Virus record (IMG/VR): IMGVR_UViG_2778261641_000014
Location: 1-9,545 of that record
DNA from: a virus
Taxonomy: Duplodnaviria > Heunggongvirae > Uroviricota > Caudoviricetes
DNA length: 9,545 nucleotides
Strand: one strand, 5' to 3'
Part shown: one piece after another, positions 1-9,545 of the stretch
Position numbering within the stretch: the stretch's first letter is position 1
Layout of the letters: each line of letters starts with the position of its first letter
Program-made: the position numbers and the translations under genes
Notes under the pieces: model-generated
What the model saw: only the letters and a program-made list of their open reading frames with translations
Database searches by the model: none
What the model was told of the DNA's origin: nothing

Positions 1-44
1 AGTCTGCAAAGAAACATCAAAGAAATAAACGATAATCCCATCAA

Positions 45-70
45 CCCGGCCACCGAGCCGGGTTTTCTTT
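45..70 (+). terminator. Rho-independent terminator, probably ending an upstream immunity-region transcript
   Basis: Hairpin CCCGGC (45-50) / loop CACCGA / GCCGGG (57-62) followed by TTTTCTTT (63-70). Confidence 0.5.
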
Positions 71-239
71 GCCTCTCGCCCAAAAAAAACACATAACCAA
101 TTGTATTTATTGATGTAACTCGCTAAACCATACAGTTCTGATCCCTGCCGCATAACCTTCATCAGCCACATTTTCAAAAATAAATTTCCTTATATATCAG
201 AATCATACTTCGTAGAGTTAATAAATCACCAAAATTCGT

Positions 240-272
240 ACCAATAGTTCTTGATAATGTCGAACTATTGGT
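240..272. promoter_or_regulatory. Perfect 11-bp-arm inverted repeat; candidate operator (OL-like) or RNA hairpin
   Basis: ACCAATAGTTC (240-250) and its exact reverse complement GAACTATTGGT (262-272), separated by 11 bp. It lies about 80 bp upstream of boxB and overlaps a sigma70-like hexamer pair. Confidence 0.3.
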
Positions 273-279
273 TCATTAT
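251..279 (+). promoter_or_regulatory. Candidate pL-like sigma70 promoter (-35 TTGATA, 17-bp spacer, -10 CATTAT)
   Basis: TTGATA at 251-256 and CATTAT at 274-279 with a 17-bp spacer, embedded in the palindrome and upstream of boxB and the N-like gene. The hexamers are weak and the call rests on position alone. Confidence 0.25.
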
Positions 280-348
280 TATCGTCATCAGCAGGACGCA
301 TTACTCACCATGGCGGTGAATATACAACGATTCAAACATGAATCTACG

Positions 349-363
349 GCGCTGACAAAGCGC
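349..363 (+). promoter_or_regulatory. nutL boxB RNA hairpin (P22-type, GACAA pentaloop)
   Basis: GCGCTGACAAAGCGC is a 5-bp stem with a GACAA loop and matches the phage P22 boxB sequence as I recall it. It sits about 130 nt upstream of an N-like ORF that carries an arginine-rich N-terminus. No clear boxA (CGCTCTTA-like) was found upstream. Confidence 0.7.
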
Positions 364-491
364 AATAACCAAAGTGAACTTTGGGGTGAATGCAGAAGCT
401 AATCTTCTCGGCGGAGGCGCTTTGCAATGATTACGCGACCGGAGTTAGTCGCACGGCTGTATTCACCGCCAAAGTTCATCAGGAGGTCTAT

Positions 492-875
492 ATGACACGC
501 AGAACTCAGTTCAAAGGCAATTCACGTTCTCGTCGTCGTGAGCGTTTAAAGGCAAAGGCATTAGCTAACGGCGTACTGGCCCGCGAAGAAGCAATAAGTT
601 CAGAAGTATTACACCGCCCTACTCTAAGCAGAGCGCAGATTCAGGCTAAAGGTACTCACGAAACGCCTGAGCGCATAGAAGACGCTAAGCCAATTAAGTT
701 CATGGCACAGGACGTGATCTGGCAACAGAAAGAATACAGACGTAATCTGGAGAGAGCGGCCATTGTGTACGCGAATGAGTTTGGACATAAGCAACCAGAA
801 ACTGGTGTATGTCTTCCAAATGTAGCTCTTTACGCAGCAGGCTACCGGAAATCAAAACAACTGACGGCGAGGTAA
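492..875 (+). CDS. N-like transcription antitermination protein (P22 gp24 family)
   Basis: Strong RBS AGGAGG (481-486) 5 nt before ATG 492. Arginine-rich motif NSRSRRRERLKAKA near the N-terminus; C-terminus LPNVALYAAGYRKSKQLTAR closely resembles the P22 gp24 C-terminus as I recall it. The track ORF starting at 390 is a 5' over-extension that would include boxB. Confidence 0.75.
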   Translation: MTRRTQFKGNSRSRRRERLKAKALANGVLAREEAISSEVLHRPTLSRAQIQAKGTHETPERIEDAKPIKFMAQDVIWQQKEYRRNLERAAIVYANEFGHKQPETGVCLPNVALYAAGYRKSKQLTAR

Positions 876-1103
876 GTGGTGAATCAGACATACATTCCAT
901 CATGCTTGAGAAATCTGCCAAAGCAGAAAGCAAAGCCCCGCAAGCAAGCCATAAAGGACGCTAAGTCAGAGGTTATTGATCAAGCAATACAATTGCTCAG
1001 GAAGGAGTTAAGAAGTGGCAAGCTCGAAGGAATGATGATGCCCTATCAGCGCGGATATCTATCGGCGATTAGTAAGTTGGAAGTATTGAAGAGTGAATTA
1101 TGA
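876..1103 (+). CDS. Hypothetical small basic protein (75 aa), immediate-early position
   Basis: ORF beginning at GTG 876 directly after the N-like stop, with GAGGT 866-870 as a possible RBS. Lysine-rich N-terminus. No family recognised. Confidence 0.45.
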   Translation: MVNQTYIPSCLRNLPKQKAKPRKQAIKDAKSEVIDQAIQLLRKELRSGKLEGMMMPYQRGYLSAISKLEVLKSEL

Positions 1104-1167
1104 ACTATCTGGAATTTCCGGATGGTTCATTGTTTTGGCAGCAAACCAATTATTTGAGAGCTGATAC

Positions 1168-1410
1168 ATGAGAGTAAAAACTATGGGCGCAAGCCCATTA
1201 AGCGGTCGTATTTTTCAAGGAACATTAAACACTGAAAAAGGAATGTGGGTAGGAAAGAAAGAAGATGTCACCGATCAAGCAGTTAAGGCAGTAGCCGAAC
1301 ACCTGATGATAAAAGACCAGAAATATGCATACGAAACGAAGGATGGCAAATGGCTGATAATAAGTCATCAACTGGTTGATAAATTACCAGAAGAGTTTGT
1401 TGATGGTTAA
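1168..1410 (+). CDS. Hypothetical protein (80 aa; alternative start at ATG 1183)
   Basis: ORF with a GAGAG motif upstream, lying between the N-like gene and the first intrinsic terminator. No family recognised. Confidence 0.45.
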   Translation: MRVKTMGASPLSGRIFQGTLNTEKGMWVGKKEDVTDQAVKAVAEHLMIKDQKYAYETKDGKWLIISHQLVDKLPEEFVDG

Positions 1411-1448
1411 ATTTGCTTTGGAATAAGCAACAGAATAAACACTGCACT

Positions 1449-1476
1449 GTGTATTCATTCCAACGAGTGAATACAC
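1449..1476. repeat. Perfect 9-bp-arm inverted repeat with 10-nt spacer (function unknown)
   Basis: GTGTATTCA (1449-1457) and TGAATACAC (1468-1476) are exact reverse complements. Located in the intergenic region about 60 bp upstream of the tL1-like terminator. Confidence 0.6.
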
Positions 1477-1538
1477 GGAGCAATGTCGCTCGTAACTAAA
1501 CAGGAGCCGACTTGTTCTGATTGTTGGAAATCTTCTTT

Positions 1539-1565
1539 GCCCTCCAATGTGAGGGCGATTTTTTA
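1539..1565 (+). terminator. Rho-independent terminator (tL1-like, inside the pL operon)
   Basis: GCCCTC (1539-1544) / loop CAATGT / GAGGGC (1551-1556), then GATTTTTTA. In lambdoid phages a terminator at this position is bypassed by N antitermination. Confidence 0.65.
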
Positions 1566-1584
1566 TCTATGAGGATATGAATAG

Positions 1585-1953
1585 ATGTCAAACATCAAAA
1601 AATACATCATTGATTACGACTGGAAAGCATCAATAGAAATTGAAATCGACCATGACGTAATGACAGAGGGAAAACTTCACCAGATTAATAATTTCTGGTC
1701 AGACTCTGAATACCGACTCAATAAACATGGCTCTGTATTAAATGCTGTATTAATCATGCTGGCGCAACATGCTCTGCTTATAGCAATTTCGAAAGACTTA
1801 AATGCATATGGTGTTGTTTGTGAGTTCGACTGGGATGATGGAAATGGTCAGGAAGGATGGCCTCCAATGGATGGTAGTGAAGGAATAAGAATTGCCGATA
1901 TCGATACATCAGGAATATTTGATTCAGATGATATGACTATCAAAGCCGCCTGA
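1585..1953 (+). CDS. Hypothetical strongly acidic protein (122 aa), low-GC gene; candidate anti-restriction / anti-defence (DNA-mimic-like)
   Basis: RBS GAGGA 1571-1575 before ATG 1585. The translation has about 22 Asp/Glu against 9 Lys/Arg, with an Asp-rich C-terminal third. The gene is visibly AT-rich compared with its neighbours and occupies the ral / gene-17 slot between N and cIII. Confidence 0.6.
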   Translation: MSNIKKYIIDYDWKASIEIEIDHDVMTEGKLHQINNFWSDSEYRLNKHGSVLNAVLIMLAQHALLIAISKDLNAYGVVCEFDWDDGNGQEGWPPMDGSEGIRIADIDTSGIFDSDDMTIKAA

Positions 1954-2028
1954 GCGCGGCTTTACCGCATACCAATAATGCTTCACGAGAGGCATTTTCG
2001 TTATGCAATCAAATATAAGGAGTTACCC

Positions 2029-2163
2029 ATGATGCACTTTCAGCTCGCGGGTAGCGGCGTCATGTCCGCTTTCTACCCGCACGAATCTGAATTATCACGC
2101 CGAGTTAAACAATTAATCAGAGCAGCAAAGAAACAACTGGAGGCGTTATGCGCAATGAAATAG
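2029..2163 (+). CDS. cIII-like protein (FtsH inhibitor family), 44 aa
   Basis: RBS AAGGAG 2017-2022 before ATG 2029. The translation MMHFQLAGSGVMSAFYPHESELSRRVKQLIRAAKKQLEAL follows the lambda CIII pattern (M-x-Y/F-x-I/L-AG ... P-x-ES-x-L-x-R) as I recall it. The upstream ATG at 1978 lacks an RBS. Confidence 0.5.
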   Translation: MMHFQLAGSGVMSAFYPHESELSRRVKQLIRAAKKQLEALCAMK

Positions 2164-2300
2164 CCATCAATCACCAGATGCTTCGTGCAGCACAGAACAA
2201 AGCAGTAATAGCCAGATTTATTGGTGATTCAAAAATGTGGCTTGAAGCAAATAAAGCGATGAAATCAGCTATCAACCTTCCGTGGTATCGCAGGAAATGA
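2148..2300 (+). CDS. Small protein (50 aa), tentatively Kil-like cell-division inhibitor
   Basis: ORF not in the supplied track because it is under 60 aa. ATG 2148 is preceded by GGAGG 2139-2143 and overlaps the end of the cIII-like ORF. The translation MRNEIAINHQMLRAAQNKAVIARFIGDSKMWLEANKAMKSAINLPWYRRK contains a FIGD.KM..EA motif that I recall from lambda Kil; this is a memory-based, tentative match. Confidence 0.4.
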   Translation: MRNEIAINHQMLRAAQNKAVIARFIGDSKMWLEANKAMKSAINLPWYRRK

Positions 2301-2467
2301 GCTTTACAGATAACTGGTCAGACGAAGAATTCATTCGTCAGATGAAAGAATTAATCGGTAACGAAGGAGATATTCATGTCACTTGCAACCACAGTGAAGG
2401 AGAGCAAGTTACAGAGACGCATGTACACGCAGCAGGCGTTAATGTATCGCCAGAAGGGAGATCGTGA
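2297..2467 (+). CDS. Hypothetical small acidic protein (56 aa)
   Basis: ATG 2297 overlaps the stop of the preceding ORF (ATGA) and is in the same frame as track ORF 2282-2467. It sits just upstream of erf, where P22 carries arf, but I cannot confirm similarity. Confidence 0.35.
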   Translation: MSFTDNWSDEEFIRQMKELIGNEGDIHVTCNHSEGEQVTETHVHAAGVNVSPEGRS

Positions 2468-2556
2468 AGGTGTTCGCGTATTTTTAAATGCGGCAAAGAC
2501 TGAAGTATTAAATCAGCGTTATTTACTTGGGCCGTGTCCATTCTGAGAACAATCAT

Positions 2557-3162
2557 ATGAGCAAAGAATTTTACGCAAGACTGGCAGCTATTCAGGAGAA
2601 TCTGAACGCGCCAAAGAATCAGTACAACTCATTCGGCAAATATAAATACAGAAGCTGCGAAGACATTCTTGAAGGCGTTAAGCCGTTACTGAATGGCCTG
2701 TTTTTATCAATCAGCGATGAAGTTGTGTTGATTGGTGATCGGTATTACGTGAAAGCCACGGCAACTATTACCGATGGCGAAAACAGTCATACAGCAACCG
2801 CTCTTGCACGAGAGGAAGAAAGCAAGAAAGGAATGGATTCTGCACAAGTTACTGGAGCTACAAGCTCTTATGCACGCAAGTATTGCCTCAATGGTTTGTT
2901 CGGCATTGATGATGCGAAAGATGCAGATACAGACGAGCATAAACATCAGCAGAGCGCAGCAGCAAAGCAATCAAAACCATCACATACACCTGAACAGGTT
3001 CTAAAAGCATTCACTGACGCAGCATTGCAGAAAAACACCGTGGAAGAGCTTAAACAGGCGTTCGCCAAAGCGTGGAAGATGCTCGAAGGCACACCGGAGC
3101 AGCAAAAAGCGCAGGACGTTTACAACATCAGACGAGACGAATTAGAAGGAGCGGCTGCTTAA
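2557..3162 (+). CDS. erf: Erf-family single-strand annealing protein
   Basis: The translation from ATG 2557 (MSKEFYARLAAIQENLNAPKNQYNSFGKYKYRSCEDILEGVKPLL ... YARKYCLNGLFGIDDAKDADTDE) closely matches P22 Erf as I recall it. The track's TTG start at 2527 is probably an over-extension. Confidence 0.85.
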   Translation: MSKEFYARLAAIQENLNAPKNQYNSFGKYKYRSCEDILEGVKPLLNGLFLSISDEVVLIGDRYYVKATATITDGENSHTATALAREEESKKGMDSAQVTGATSSYARKYCLNGLFGIDDAKDADTDEHKHQQSAAAKQSKPSHTPEQVLKAFTDAALQKNTVEELKQAFAKAWKMLEGTPEQQKAQDVYNIRRDELEGAAA

Positions 3163-3545
3163 TGGCACATTCGATTACTGTAAGACTAAACAAGCCCGCA
3201 AGAGAGTTTCAGGCCGGGGAAAATATCGGATTCAACATCCGTGCTGGCGTTCAGTATTACGATCGCCAGACAAAAAAGAAAGAATGGACAAACTACAGCG
3301 CCGTTGTATTTGCCAAGCCGGGAGCGCAAGCGGATTACTACCGTAGTGTTCTTGTTGAAGGAGGCATTGTAGAAATTACCGGAGAAAACATCAGGGTTGA
3401 TGTTTATCAGGGGCAAAATGGTCAATCAATCACTCTTGAATTACTGAATGCAAAGATTGGATTTGCAACTTCAGGAAACAGCCAACAGCAGCAAAGTAGC
3501 AATCATCAAAATCATCCTGAATACGACGATTCAATTCCCTTCTAG
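3162..3545 (+). CDS. ssb: Phage single-stranded DNA-binding protein (SSB-like, OB fold, acidic C-terminal tip)
   Basis: ATG 3162 overlaps the erf stop (TAATG). The translation ends in the canonical SSB tail ...EYDDSIPF (compare E. coli SSB ...DDDIPF) after a Q/N/S-rich linker. The track start at 3072 is an in-frame over-extension. Confidence 0.8.
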   Translation: MAHSITVRLNKPAREFQAGENIGFNIRAGVQYYDRQTKKKEWTNYSAVVFAKPGAQADYYRSVLVEGGIVEITGENIRVDVYQGQNGQSITLELLNAKIGFATSGNSQQQQSSNHQNHPEYDDSIPF

Positions 3546-3568
3546 ATTAGCAAAATAAGGATTCCATT

Positions 3569-3865
3569 ATGCCAGCGCCTCTGTATGGTGCGGATGACCC
3601 GCGCCGCTGTTCCGGCAATTCCGTATCGGAGGTGCTGGATAAATTCAGAAAAAACTACGACCTGATAATGTCGCTACCGCAGGAAACGAAAGAGGAAAAG
3701 GAATTTCGCCACTGTATATGGCTTGCAGAGAAAGAAGAACGCGAGCGAATTTACCAGACATCAATCCGACCATTCCGCAAAGCCACATATACCCACTTCC
3801 CTGAATATATCGACCCGCGCCTGCGTAATTACCGCTCACGCTATGGCGCTATCAGTAATGACTGA
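3569..3865 (+). CDS. Hypothetical protein (98 aa)
   Basis: RBS AAGGA 3557-3561 before ATG 3569. It is the first ORF after ssb. No family recognised. Confidence 0.55.
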
Positions 3866-3875
3866 GGAATTTACC

Positions 3876-4040
3876 ATGAGAGGACTTGCATACAATCCCG
3901 GCATTCTTCCGGCAGAAATGATTATTCGCCAACGCGTAAAGCCAATGCCATCGAGAGAGGAATTGCTTAAGAGAAATAGTTTCGGTTCTGTTAATGACAA
4001 CAGATATCTGAATGCGATGTGGCGGAGTGGGAAAAAATGA
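3876..4040 (+). CDS. Hypothetical small protein (54 aa)
   Basis: RBS GAGGA 3864-3868 before ATG 3876, in frame with track ORF 3723-4040 (which overlaps the previous gene and is probably over-extended). Its stop overlaps the next start (ATGA). Confidence 0.4.
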
Positions 4041-6702: not shown

Positions 6703-7050
6703 GTGGAAGAAGAAATCTTCACTCGTGAAGAGGCAGCATCGTATCTGAAGGTAGACAAAGGCACTATCACGCAGTGGATACGAAGTGGACGACTTCAGGC
6801 CGCAAAGATAAATCCAGATAAACCTAAAAGTCCATATCGCATTTGCAAGTCAGACTGCATTGCGGCGCTTAAGTCTGTGAGACACAATAGCGCGGTGAAT
6901 GCGGTTGATGTGCAGGAGGTTAAAGCATGTCAATCAAACTACGCGGTGGCACGTGGCACTGTGATTTCGTCGCGCCAGATGGATCAAGAGTTAGACGCTC
7001 TCTTGAAACATCGGACAAAAGGCAAGCGCAAGAACTTCACGATCGTCTGA
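6703..7050 (+). CDS. xis: Excisionase (HTH-type Xis / AlpA-like DNA-binding domain), overlapping int
   Basis: GTG 6703 with TGGAGA upstream. The N-terminal FTREEAASYLKVDKGTITQWIRSGRLQAAKI is a typical excisionase helix-turn-helix. The ORF runs 124 nt into int in another frame, as is usual for lambdoid xis-int pairs; the true 3' end is uncertain. Confidence 0.6.
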   Translation: MEEEIFTREEAASYLKVDKGTITQWIRSGRLQAAKINPDKPKSPYRICKSDCIAALKSVRHNSAVNAVDVQEVKACQSNYAVARGTVISSRQMDQELDALLKHRTKGKRKNFTIV

Positions 7051-8087
7051 AAGCAGAAGCGTGGAGAGTAAAAAATCTCGGGGAATCACCGAAAAAGCTA
7101 TTCAAGGAAGCCTGCATACGGTGGCTGCGTGAGAAATCGGATAAGAAGTCCATTGATGATGACAAGAGCATTATATCGTTCTGGATGTTGCACTTCAGAG
7201 AAACCATTCTCTCTGACATAACAACAGAAAAAATAATGGAGGCGGTAGACGGGATGGAAAACCGCCGCCATCGCCTGAACTGGGAGATGAGCCGGGACAG
7301 GTGTTTGCGGCTTGGCAAGCCAGTGCCGGAGTATAAACCAAAGCTTGCAAGCAAAGGAACGAAGACGAGGCATCTGGCAATACTTCGCGCCATTCTCAAT
7401 ATGGCTGTTGAATGGGGATGGCTTGACAGGGCACCCAAAATATCAACACCACGCGTTAAGAATGGACGCATCAGATGGCTTACAGAGGAGGAATCGAAGC
7501 GCCTGTTTGCAGAAATTGCTCCTCATTTCTTCCCTGTGGTCATGTTTGCAATCACGACAGGCCTTCGCCGTTCCAACGTTACAGACCTTGAGTGGTCACA
7601 GGTCGATCTGGATAAGAAAATGGCATGGATGCACCCTGATGAAACAAAAGCTGGCAATGCGATCGGAGTTCCTCTTAACGAAACCGCATGCCAGATATTA
7701 AGAAAACAGCAGGGGCTCCATAAGAGATGGGTATTTGTCCACACCAAACCTGCCTACCGAAGCGACGGAACAAAAACAGCAGCGGTAAGGAAGATGAGAA
7801 CCGACAGCAACAAGGCATGGAAGGGAGCGTTAAAGCGGGCAGGCATTAGCAACTTCCGCTTCCATGACCTGAGGCATACCTGGGCAAGCTGGCTGGTTCA
7901 GTCCGGTGTCTCTCTTCTTGCACTTAAAGAGATGGGAGGATGGGAAACTCTCGAAATGGTTCAAAGATACGCCCACCTTTCAGCCGGGCATCTCACCGAG
8001 CACGCGAGCAAAATCGATGCGATTATAAGTCGCAATGGCACAAATACGGCACAAGAGGAGAACGTAGTTTACTTAAATGTGAGGTAA
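6927..8087 (+). CDS. int: Tyrosine site-specific integrase (P22 Int / DLP12 IntD family), 386 aa
   Basis: Strong RBS AGGAGG 6914-6919 before ATG 6927. Catalytic-domain motifs TGLRRSN ... HDLRHTWASWLVQSGV ... LKEMGGWETLEMVQRYAHL fit the R...HxxR...Y pattern. The gene ends 14 bp before the tRNA 3' end. Confidence 0.9.
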   Translation: MSIKLRGGTWHCDFVAPDGSRVRRSLETSDKRQAQELHDRLKAEAWRVKNLGESPKKLFKEACIRWLREKSDKKSIDDDKSIISFWMLHFRETILSDITTEKIMEAVDGMENRRHRLNWEMSRDRCLRLGKPVPEYKPKLASKGTKTRHLAILRAILNMAVEWGWLDRAPKISTPRVKNGRIRWLTEEESKRLFAEIAPHFFPVVMFAITTGLRRSNVTDLEWSQVDLDKKMAWMHPDETKAGNAIGVPLNETACQILRKQQGLHKRWVFVHTKPAYRSDGTKTAAVRKMRTDSNKAWKGALKRAGISNFRFHDLRHTWASWLVQSGVSLLALKEMGGWETLEMVQRYAHLSAGHLTEHASKIDAIISRNGTNTAQEENVVYLNVR

Positions 8088-8101: not shown

Positions 8102-8177
8102 TGGTGCCGATAATAGGAGTCGAACCTACGACCTTCGCATTACGAATGCGCTGCTCTACCAACTGAGCTATATCGGC
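8102..8177 (-). tRNA. thrW: tRNA-Thr (anticodon CGU), thrW-type; prophage attachment site
   Basis: The reverse complement of 8102-8177 folds as a cloverleaf: acceptor GCCGATA, D-arm GCTC/GAGC, anticodon loop TTCGTAA (anticodon CGT), T-arm GGTTCGACTCC, 3' ACCA. 76 nt, matching E. coli thrW as I recall it. Confidence 0.9.
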
Positions 8178-8291: not shown

Positions 8292-9545
8292 TTACGCACG
8301 AATGGTGTAATCACCAATGCCGATCCACTTGTAAGTGGTCAGTGCTTCCAGCCCCATTGGGCCACGCGCGTGGAGTTTTTGTGTGCTTACCGCCACTTCC
8401 GCACCCAGACCAAACTGGCCGCCGTCGGTAAAACGCGTAGAGGCGTTAACGTAAACAGCGGACGAATCCACTTCGTTAACAAAACGCTGGGCGTTGCGCA
8501 TATCGCGGGTCAGGATCGCATCGGAGTGTTGTGTGCCGTGTTCACGAATATGGGCGATGGCATCGTCAAGATCGCTGACGATTTTGACGTTCAAATCTAA
8601 TGACAGAAACTCATCGTCATACTCTTCGGCTTTAACAGCAACCACCTTCGCAGGGCCTGCCTGCAACTGCGCCAGTGCAGCTGCATCTGCGTGTAATGTC
8701 ACGCCGCTTTCCGCCATTTGTTTGCTTAATGCGGGCAGGAAGCTATCGGCGATGTTTTTATTCACCAGCAACGTTTCAACCGTATTACATGTGCTCGGAC
8801 GCTGAGTTTTCGCGTTGACGATCACTTTTAATGCTTCAGCGATCTCTACACTTTCATCAACGTAAATATGGCATACGCCTATACCACCTGTGATCACCGG
8901 GATTGTCGACTGTTCACGGCACAGTTTATGCAAACCAGCGCCACCACGCGGGATCAGCATGTCGATGTATTTATCCATACGCAGCATTTCACTGACCAGC
9001 GCACGGTCAGGATTATCAATCGCCTGCACGGCACCCGCCGGTAAGCCGCAGGATTTCAGGGCGTCCTGAATCACCGCCACCGTTGCAGCGTTAGTGCGAC
9101 ACGTTTCTTTGCCACCGCGCAGGATCACCGCATTACCGGTTTTCAGGCACAGCGAAGCGACATCAACCGTCACGTTCGGGCGCGCTTCATAAATCACGCC
9201 AATAACCCCCAGCGGTACGCGACGACGCTCAAGACGCAGGCCGCTGTCCAGTACGCTGCCATCGATTACCTGCCCCACCGGATCGGCGAGGTTACACACC
9301 TGGCGCACATCATCGGCAATGCCTTTCAGCCGTGCGGGCGTCAGTGCCAGACGGTCAAGCATCGCTTCGCCAAGGCCATTGGCACGCGCGTCAGCAACAT
9401 CCTGGGCGTTAGCGTTGAGGATGATTTCGCTTTGTGCTTCCAGTTCATCGGCGATTTTTTCCAGCACGCGATTTTTTTCGCGGCTGGAGAGTTGCGCTAA
9501 TTTATACGAGGCTTGCTTCGCGGCAATGCCCATTTGTTCCAGCAT
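8292..9545 (-). CDS. proA: Gamma-glutamyl phosphate reductase (glutamate-5-semialdehyde dehydrogenase), complete, 417 aa
   Basis: Full-length minus-strand ORF whose translation ([38 protein letters not shown] ... [12 protein letters not shown]) is recognisable as E. coli ProA. The start codon is the last three bases of the window. Confidence 0.95.

What the first reader, a model, noticed from the sequence alone, without database searches (positions are those of the whole stretch)
240..279. Large perfect palindrome overlapping a candidate pL promoter upstream of nutL
An 11-bp perfect inverted repeat (ACCAATAGTTC / GAACTATTGGT) with an 11-bp spacer lies about 80 bp upstream of boxB and overlaps a TTGATA-17-CATTAT hexamer pair. 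This is the geometry expected for an operator controlling pL, but arm length and spacing differ from the lambda, P22 and 434 operators I recall, so the repressor specificity may be unusual. A similar half-site (ACCAATTGT) recurs at 86-94. It could alternatively be a leader RNA hairpin.
Basis: seen in the sequence. Interest (0 to 1): 0.4.

Follow-up and report, generated by a model that had tools for sequence, protein, structure and literature searches.

The report
Phage 933W left operators OL2 and OL1
The "large palindrome" is two adjacent, already characterised repressor-binding sites (OL2 and OL1) of Shiga-toxin phage 933W immunity, which flank the -35 box of the early leftward promoter pL, so it is an ordinary, known prophage on/off switch.

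Summary
The inverted repeat is real: ACCAATAGTTC at 240-250 and GAACTATTGGT at 262-272, with an 11-nt gap. It overlaps TTGATA-17-CATTAT. It is not one unusual long operator. Window 189-286 is base-for-base identical to phage 933W. There the two arms lie inside the annotated repressor sites OL2 (core 237-251) and OL1 (core 261-275). Both are 15-bp sites with the published 933W half-site pattern nG(A/T)AC. OL1 is the reverse complement of OL2 at 12 of 15 positions, and that produces the 11-nt arms.

Among 80 viral contigs with a >=99% identical N gene, 25 carry the element. Of these, 24 have a full-length 933W-type cI upstream; the other has too short a flank. None of the 55 heteroimmune contigs has it. 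That includes 14 whose repressor shares only the C-terminal domain.

Homology between immunity types resumes at base 286, the lambda pL start sequence CATCAGCAGG. This puts +1 at about A287, downstream of the palindrome, so the leader-hairpin alternative fails.

Verdict: already known, low interest.

The parts
43..70 (+). Intrinsic terminator ending the upstream cI (immunity) transcript; equivalent to tM of 933W.
   Evidence: The terminator scan gives an 8-bp stem (6 G-C pairs) followed by a T-run. It aligns with the feature annotated 'tM; putative terminator for pM transcript' in AF125520.
114..285 (.). 933W-immunity-specific OL/pL cassette. Bases 1-113 and 286 onward are shared with heteroimmune phages.
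   Evidence: BLAST of window 1-900 against 80 N-matched loci shows that heteroimmune loci match about 43-113 and then resume at exactly 286. Seven loci with an exact match to window 1-51 match only 1-111/113 and then 286 onward. The cassette occurs in 92 phage records and in 207 of 5426 complete E. coli genomes.
237..251 (.). OL2, a 15-bp 933W repressor binding site: CGTACCA-A-TAGTTCT. It holds the left arm of the palindrome and abuts the -35 hexamer.
   Evidence: The GenBank GQ499361 feature 'OL2 repressor binding site' maps to window 238-253. It is the second-best hit in the whole window to a matrix built from the 933W OR sites only. Its half-sites fit the nG(A/T)AC pattern described in PMC3317979.
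251..256 (+). pL -35 hexamer, TTGATA.
   Evidence: Found by the promoter scan. All six immunity classes carry a TTGNNN hexamer, a 17-nt spacer and a -10 hexamer at essentially the same distance (33-35 nt) from the shared CATCAGCAGG start region.
261..275 (.). OL1, a 15-bp 933W repressor binding site: CGAACTA-T-TGGTTCA. It holds the right arm of the palindrome, fills the -35/-10 spacer and overlaps the first 2 bp of the -10.
   Evidence: The GenBank GQ499361 feature 'OL1 repressor binding site' maps to window 260-275. It is the top hit in the window to the OR-only matrix.
274..279 (+). pL -10 hexamer, CATTAT.
287..287 (+). Inferred pL transcription start: the A of CATCAGCAGG. This is inferred, not mapped.
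   Evidence: The window's CATCAGCAGGACGC is homologous to the start of the lambda pL transcript; the lambda +1 position is from my own knowledge. Homology among all immunity classes begins at 286. 933W has G at this position.
297..363 (+). nutL, with the boxB hairpin GCGCU-GACAA-AGCGC at 349-363.
   Evidence: The nutL features of GQ499361 and AF125520 were transferred through alignment A1. The boxB stem-loop is predicted in the leader fold.
492..875 (+). N antitermination protein gene (127 aa), the first gene of the pL operon.
   Evidence: phrog_271 'anti-termination protein N-like', E = 9.5e-39. Aligned records annotate this gene as N, and 21 IMG/VR loci carry a 100% identical N.

Best explanation
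Bases 237-275 are the left operator region (OL) of a prophage with phage 933W immunity. There are two 15-bp binding sites for the 933W CI repressor. OL2 (237-251) abuts the -35 hexamer of pL. OL1 (261-275) lies in the spacer and overlaps the start of the -10.

In a lysogen, CI dimers on these sites block RNA polymerase at pL (TTGATA-17-CATTAT, +1 at about A287). When RecA-stimulated self-cleavage removes CI, pL fires. It transcribes nutL (297-363) and N (492-875), which opens the leftward early operon.

The 11-nt perfect inverted repeat arises because OL1 is the mirror image of OL2, including the weakly specified central bases.

Shown here: sequence identity to 933W, the match to the operator pattern, strict co-occurrence with the 933W-type DNA-binding domain, and the promoter geometry. 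Taken from the literature for the identical sequence: repressor binding, only two OL sites, and no cooperativity. Inferred: the exact +1, and that this particular prophage carries the cognate cI upstream of the window.
For: - Window 189-286 is identical to 933W (AF125520) and to 32deltatox (GQ499361). GQ499361 annotates 'OL2' and 'OL1 repressor binding site' at the positions that map to window 238-253 and 260-275.
- Both sites fit the published description of the five natural 933W operators (PMC3317979). These are 15 bp long and rotationally symmetric about a central base pair. A-C at positions 4-5 is invariant. [quoted passage not shown] The ten half-sites tabulated behave exactly so.
- A weight matrix built only from OR1-3 ranks 261-275 and 237-251 first and second among all 9531 positions in the window.
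- Among 80 IMG/VR loci with a >=99% identical N, 25 carry the 39-mer with at most 1 mismatch. Of these, 24 have a 235-aa cI that is >=99.6% identical to 933W cI; the other has only 1.7 kb of upstream flank.
- The 55 loci without the 39-mer include 14 whose repressor matches 933W cI only over residues 82-235, the C-terminal domain (92-95% identical), with a different N-terminal domain.
- L094, the closest relative found (99.3% identical over window 42-3879), has a 100% identical 933W cI. So do PhiR12_1 and two E. coli chromosomes with different cargo genes between cI and OL.
- In Stx2_EH1965 the flanks carry substitutions and nutL/N is replaced, yet both operators and both hexamers are unchanged.
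- Of the four variant loci (three distinct variants), three are changed at 259 or 260, between the -35 hexamer and OL1. The fourth is changed at 246, the weakly specified position 7' of OL2.
- All six immunity classes place a TTGNNN hexamer, a 17-nt spacer and a -10 hexamer at essentially the same distance from the shared CATCAGCAGG.
- A review states that 933W has three OR sites and two OL sites (PMC8065619).
Against: - No binding or transcript-mapping experiment was done on this sequence. The primary papers (PMC524892, PMC524894, PMC3133280) are not held, so the operator sequences were reconstructed from GenBank features and the text of PMC3317979, not read from the original figures.
- The GenBank features are 16 bp long and offset by 1-2 bp from the symmetric 15-bp cores I give.
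- The window starts 236 bp upstream of OL2, so its own repressor gene is unseen.
- Window bases 1-51 match exactly only heteroimmune contigs in IMG/VR. However, E. coli strain 90-3040 combines a window-like 1-44 segment with 933W cI and OL.
- As single sites, the matrix scores (13.7 and 12.8) lie within the range of the best chance hit in a shuffled window (median 10.8, 95th percentile 14.9).
Confidence: 0.93

Rival explanations
1. The palindrome is one long operator, with 11-bp arms and an 11-bp spacer, for a regulator of unusual specificity. That could be a tetramer or a non-CI protein.
For: The arms are perfect and longer than the repressor contacts require. Their centre of symmetry (base 256) falls on the last base of the -35 hexamer. 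The O1-O2 pair at OR shows the same mirror arrangement.
Against: Each arm lies inside its own pseudo-symmetric 15-bp site, which matches the three OR sites individually. GenBank and PMC3317979 treat them as two independent sites bound non-cooperatively. One natural variant (L059, A246G) breaks the perfect repeat and makes OL2's right half read TGGTTC, as in OL1 and OR3.
Confidence: 0.03
2. The palindrome acts as an RNA hairpin, either a leader structure or a terminator, in a transcript crossing 240-272.
For: As RNA, bases 230-295 fold at -13.9 kcal/mol, z = -3.1 against shuffles, with an 11-bp stem extended by 3 further pairs in the loop. Read-through from the upstream cI transcript would cross it.
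Against: - It lies upstream of the inferred +1 (about 287), so it is absent from the pL transcript.
- It has no T-run and a stem with only 4 G-C pairs in 11. The terminator scan does not call it.
- A strong terminator at 43-70 precedes it.
- Any DNA palindrome folds as RNA, so the fold is not independent evidence.
- No Rfam family matches.
Confidence: 0.02
3. It is an orphan operator. Recombination in the conserved 45-113 segment joined a 933W OL cassette to a prophage whose repressor has another specificity, so pL here is not controlled by the resident repressor.
For: Window 1-51 has exact matches only in heteroimmune IMG/VR contigs. Two of these carry the chimeric repressor. Joints at 113/114 and 285/286 show that the cassette is exchanged as a unit.
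Against: Every locus that has the cassette and enough flank also has 933W-type cI: 30 loci. A prophage with an unrepressed pL would not be stably maintained. Strain 90-3040 shows a window-like 1-44 segment coexisting with 933W cI.
Confidence: 0.04

Closest known systems
OL1/OL2 operators and pL of Shiga-toxin phage 933W (AF125520; GQ499361; Koudelka et al. 2004, Tyler et al. 2004, Bullwinkle & Koudelka 2011 and 2012)
   Same: The sequence is identical across 189-286. Both have two 15-bp sites, the same promoter hexamers, the same nutL and no OL3.
   Different: - Base 287 is A here and G in 933W.
- The N-leader segment 390-460 is of the PhiR12 type, not the 933W type.
- The gene upstream of the terminator differs (933W has stk and L0081).
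- The prophage sits next to thrW and proA, with an Erf/SSB left arm instead of 933W's Bet/Exo/Gam.
Phage lambda OL/pL
   Same: - Repressor sites overlap -35 and -10.
- OL1-OL2 spacing is 24 bp centre to centre.
- The transcript begins with the homologous sequence AUCAGCAGGACGC and is followed by nutL and N.
- A terminator ending the cI transcript lies upstream (lambda facts are from established knowledge).
   Different: - Lambda has three 17-bp sites, and OL1 and OL2 are direct copies (13/17 direct against 11/17 mirrored). Binding there is cooperative.
- Here there are two 15-bp sites in mirror orientation. Binding of 933W repressor is reported as non-cooperative (PMC3317979).
- The recognition sequences are unrelated.
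Heteroimmune OL cassettes on the same N/nutL backbone (lambda type, the chimeric-cI type with AATTTATCATT repeats, and three others)
   Same: They occupy the same slot between the conserved 45-113 segment and CATCAGCAGG, and have the same -35/17/-10 geometry.
   Different: The repeat motifs are entirely different. None contains the 933W 39-mer; the best ungapped matches differ at 19-22 of 39 positions.

Membership tests
933W-immunity left operator (OL1 + OL2 / pL) | Sequence correspondence to the annotated OL1 and OL2 of 933W-immunity phages | tested here: met
   Window 189-286 is identical to AF125520 and GQ499361. The annotated sites map to 238-253 and 260-275.
933W-immunity left operator (OL1 + OL2 / pL) | 15-bp rotationally symmetric sites with G at position 2, A/T at 3, and invariant A-C at 4-5 in each half-site | tested here: met
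   The half-sites are CGTACCA / AGAACTA (OL2) and CGAACTA / TGAACCA (OL1). They rank first and second in the window with the OR-only matrix. The pattern is as described in PMC3317979.
933W-immunity left operator (OL1 + OL2 / pL) | Exactly two sites, with no OL3 | tested here: met
   No other position in 1-500 scores above 2.3 with the ten-half-site matrix (4.0 with the OR-only matrix). The candidate at 93-107 scores -0.2. The literature states 'absence of an OL3 site' and 'only two operator sites'.
933W-immunity left operator (OL1 + OL2 / pL) | Sites overlap a sigma-70 promoter that reads into nutL and N | tested here: met
   TTGATA-17-CATTAT at 251-279. Its position is conserved across six immunity classes. 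nutL and N lie downstream. The +1 is inferred, not mapped.
933W-immunity left operator (OL1 + OL2 / pL) | Cognate 933W-type cI (with its N-terminal DNA-binding domain) encoded upstream in the same element | not testable with these tools
   The window begins 236 bp upstream of OL2, and the source contig was not found. In relatives, all 30 loci with the cassette and enough flank have the cI. Loci with only the C-terminal domain lack the cassette.
933W-immunity left operator (OL1 + OL2 / pL) | Specific binding by 933W repressor and repression of pL | not testable with these tools
   This needs EMSA, footprinting or a reporter assay. It is reported in the literature for the identical sequence (PMC3317979 and its references 11 and 12; GenBank GQ499361).
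Lambda-type tripartite, cooperative operator | Three 17-bp sites with the lambda consensus | tested here: not met
   Only two 15-bp sites of unrelated sequence are present. Lambda-immunity loci carry TATCACCGC-type sites in the same slot instead.
Intrinsic terminator or leader RNA hairpin | A G+C-rich stem followed by a T-run, located within a transcript | tested here: not met
   The terminator scan does not call it. The stem has 4 G-C pairs in 11 and no T-run, and it lies upstream of the inferred +1.

The most novel reading that the evidence does not exclude
The mirror-image arrangement may be a functional feature of the 933W switch and not a by-product. At both OL and OR, the central five bases (weakly specified for repressor binding) of operator 1 are the exact reverse complement of those of operator 2: TATTG at OL and TTTCA at OR, 5/5 in each case. 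Every other pairing of the five operators gives at most 3/5 in either orientation. Each O1-O2 pair is therefore a two-fold symmetric unit of about 39 bp. At OL its centre falls on the -35 hexamer. This could reflect a symmetric higher-order complex (repressor or Cro), or a DNA-shape requirement, in a repressor reported to lack pairwise cooperativity. I found no mention of it in the one primary paper I could read. A simple origin by inverted duplication, with no function, is at least as likely.
Probability: 0.12. Interest if true: 0.35.

Novelty: already known. Interest (0 to 1): 0.1.

Why it matters
These two sites decide whether a 933W-immunity prophage stays silent or starts its early leftward operon. 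In Shiga-toxin phages, that decision ultimately governs toxin release. Recognising the cassette tells you the immunity type of this prophage. It should be repressed by 933W-type lysogens, and it should confer immunity against superinfecting phages of that type. The cassette is also common outside classic Stx phages: it occurs in 207 of 5426 complete E. coli genomes and in the PhiR12 phages. Nothing here changes current understanding.

Tried and rejected
The true position is 96-104. The best 15-mer there (93-107, ATAACCAATTGTATT) scores -0.2, against 17-18 for OL1 and OL2, and lacks G at position 2 in both halves. It lies in the 45-113 segment that heteroimmune phages also carry. Rejected.
- **RNA hairpin or terminator.** It folds at -13.9 kcal/mol, but lies upstream of +1, has no T-run and was not called by the scan. 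Rejected.
- **Finding the source contig, to see its cI.**
  - An exact 62-mer of window 1-62 gave 0 hits in genome contigs.
  - An exact 51-mer gave 7 viral contigs, all heteroimmune.
  - A megablast of the whole window found no E. coli complete genome covering more than 67% of it.
  - A look-up of the 80-aa protein at 1168-1410 gave L094, which is 99.3% identical over 42-3879 and has 933W cI, but it is not the source.
- **Primary 933W operator papers.** PMC524894, PMC524892 and PMC3133280 are not held. I relied on PMC3317979, a review and the GenBank features.
- **Rfam.** Only tRNA-Thr was found in the window.
- **Promoter consensus as evidence.** The scan found 1 site against 1.0 expected. 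The support for pL comes from comparative geometry instead.

Full report
**1. The observation**

- Bases 240-250 (ACCAATAGTTC) and 262-272 (GAACTATTGGT) are perfectly complementary, with an 11-nt gap, TTGATAATGTC. The repeat does not extend outward.
- It is the only perfect inverted repeat in the window with arms >=11 nt and a gap <=20 nt. In dinucleotide-preserving shuffles of the 9545-bp window, 42 of 1000 contained one. On its own it is only mildly improbable.
- TTGATA (251-256), a 17-nt spacer and CATTAT (274-279) are present. The scan expects 1.0 such site by chance in 600 bp, so the consensus match is not evidence by itself.
ACCAATTGT is at 96-104, not 86-94.

**2. What it is**

- A megablast of window 1-500 hits 166 phage records, mostly Stx-converting phages.
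- In a four-way alignment, window 86-390 is almost identical to phage 933W (AF125520), to the 933W-immunity clone 32deltatox (GQ499361) and to phage PhiR12_1. Window 189-286 is identical in all four.
- GQ499361 carries the features 'OL2 repressor binding site' and 'OL1 repressor binding site'. Through the alignment these map to window 238-253 and 260-275. Each arm of the palindrome lies inside one of them.
- PMC3317979 (Bullwinkle et al. 2012) describes the five natural 933W repressor sites, OR1-3 and OL1-2:
  - They are 15 bp long and symmetric about a central base pair.
  - Positions 4-5 are invariantly A-C.
  - Positions 6, 7 and the centre are weakly specified.
- I took OR1-3 from the AF125520 annotation and the symmetric cores OL2 = CGTACCA-A-TAGTTCT (237-251) and OL1 = CGAACTA-T-TGGTTCA (261-275). 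The ten half-sites fit that description exactly, including the single exception in OR2.
- A weight matrix built from the OR sites alone ranks 261-275 and 237-251 first and second in the whole window.
- OL1 equals the reverse complement of OL2 at 12 of 15 positions, 11 of them contiguous.
- The element is therefore two operators 24 bp apart centre to centre, not one long one. The 24-bp spacing is the same as 933W OR1-OR2 and lambda OL1-OL2.

**3. Link to the repressor**

- The N protein retrieved 80 IMG/VR loci with >=99% identical N and up to 6 kb of upstream flank.
- The 39-mer 237-275 is present with at most 1 mismatch in 25 of them. Of these, 24 have a full-length cI (235 aa, >=99.6% identical to 933W cI) upstream. 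The remaining one (L016) has only 1.7 kb of flank.
- The other 55 loci have nothing resembling the 39-mer; the best ungapped matches differ at 19-22 of 39 positions.
- Fourteen of those 55 carry a repressor that matches 933W cI only over residues 82-235, at 92-95% identity. It has the same C-terminal cleavage and oligomerisation domain but a different N-terminal DNA-binding domain. Their pL region carries AATTTATCATT repeats instead. This works as a natural domain swap: the operators follow the DNA-binding domain.
- Additional loci with the cassette all carry the same cI, although the cargo genes between cI and the terminator differ:
  - PhiR12_1
  - two E. coli chromosomes
  - Stx2_EH1965
  - L094, the closest relative found, 99.3% identical over window 42-3879
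- In Stx2_EH1965 the flanks have several substitutions, and nutL and N are replaced by unrelated sequence. Both operators and both promoter hexamers are still unchanged.
- Four loci carry a variant 39-mer (three distinct variants). Three are changed at 259 or 260, between the -35 hexamer and OL1. The fourth is changed at 246, position 7' of OL2.

**4. Promoter and start site**

- In heteroimmune loci, high-identity homology to the window resumes at exactly base 286. The sequence there is CATCAGCAGGACGC.
- The lambda-immunity class found among these loci carries the familiar lambda OL3-OL2-OL1/pL sequence, ending at the same CATCAGCAGG. From established knowledge, the lambda pL transcript begins at the A of this sequence.
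- All six immunity classes place a TTGNNN hexamer, a 17-nt spacer and a -10 hexamer at essentially the same distance (33-35 nt) from this point.
- I therefore infer +1 at about A287 (G in 933W). OL1 occupies the spacer and the edge of the -10, and OL2 abuts the -35.
- nutL (297-363, boxB at 349-363) and N (492-875) follow.
- The terminator at 43-70 corresponds to tM of 933W, which ends the cI transcript.

**5. Mechanism**

- CI dimers on OL1 and OL2 exclude RNA polymerase from pL in the lysogen.
- RecA-stimulated CI self-cleavage frees pL. The pL transcript then carries nutL and N. N modifies polymerase to read through the leftward early genes: Erf, SSB, ea22-like genes and int.
- For 933W, the literature reports two OL sites, no OL3 and no pairwise cooperativity.
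- Binding and repression are taken from that literature for the identical sequence and were not tested here.

**6. Alternatives**

- *Leader hairpin.* The fold is -13.9 kcal/mol, z = -3.1. However, the element lies upstream of +1, has no T-run and was not called as a terminator.
- *Third site at 96-104.* Its matrix score is -0.2, and it sits in the 45-113 segment shared with heteroimmune phages.
- *Orphan operator.* Window 1-51 matches exactly only heteroimmune contigs, so a recombinant with a mismatched repressor cannot be excluded from the window alone. No such combination appears among 30 loci with enough flank. Strain 90-3040 combines a window-like 1-44 segment with 933W cI.

**7. Novelty**

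- This is already known. The cassette (114-285) occurs in 92 phage records and in 207 of 5426 complete E. coli genomes.
- One point I did not find stated in the paper I could read: both O1-O2 pairs of 933W are mirror images down to the weakly specified central five bases (5/5 at OL and at OR). Every other pairing gives at most 3/5. Whether this is functional or a duplication relic is open.

**8. Context**

- The window is the left arm of a lambdoid prophage integrated at tRNA-Thr (thrW, 8102-8177, minus strand), next to proA (8292-9545, minus strand).

Noticed in passing
window 237-275; L003 (933W) 92-130: The adjacent operator pairs of 933W are mirror images. The central five bases of OL1 are the reverse complement of those of OL2 (TATTG). 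The same holds for OR1 and OR2 (TTTCA). Every other pairing of the five operators gives at most 3/5 in either orientation. In lambda, OL1 and OL2 are direct copies instead. The one primary paper I could read does not mention this.
   Followed up: partly
window 374-480 (N leader): The pL leader folds at -73.5 kcal/mol, z = -5.2, with a long, nearly continuous stem pairing about 374-395 with about 457-478. The stem ends just 5' of the N Shine-Dalgarno (AGGAGG, 481-486). This resembles the RNase III-sensitive N-leader stem of lambda (from my own knowledge). The inner segment 390-460 differs from 933W and is shared with the PhiR12 phages.
   Followed up: partly
window 113/114 and 285/286: There are sharp mosaic joints here. 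Bases 45-113 (the terminator plus about 45 nt) and 286 onward are shared with phages of at least five other immunity types. Bases 114-285 are specific to 933W immunity.
   Followed up: yes
L014, L020, L025, L088, L092 and nine other loci, upstream of N: A repressor class is 92-95% identical to 933W cI over residues 82-235 but has an unrelated N-terminal domain. It is paired with different pL operators (AATTTATCATT repeats). It looks like a natural domain-swap hybrid.
   Followed up: partly
window 8102-8177 (-) and 8292-9545 (-): tRNA-Thr (CGT anticodon) lies immediately after the integrase gene (6927-8087), followed by host proA. The window therefore spans the prophage-host junction at thrW.
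   Followed up: partly
window 268-402 (+): A 44-aa TTG-start ORF overlaps OL1, pL and nutL. Its counterpart is annotated 'hypothetical protein' in PhiR12_1. It covers known regulatory DNA and is probably a spurious gene call.
   Followed up: no
L056, L057, L018, L063, pL region: Another immunity class has an operator-like palindrome, AGTACACATCGTACT, between -35 and -10. Its nGTAC half-sites resemble those of 933W OR1. No repressor similar to 933W cI was detected in these loci by tblastn.
   Followed up: no
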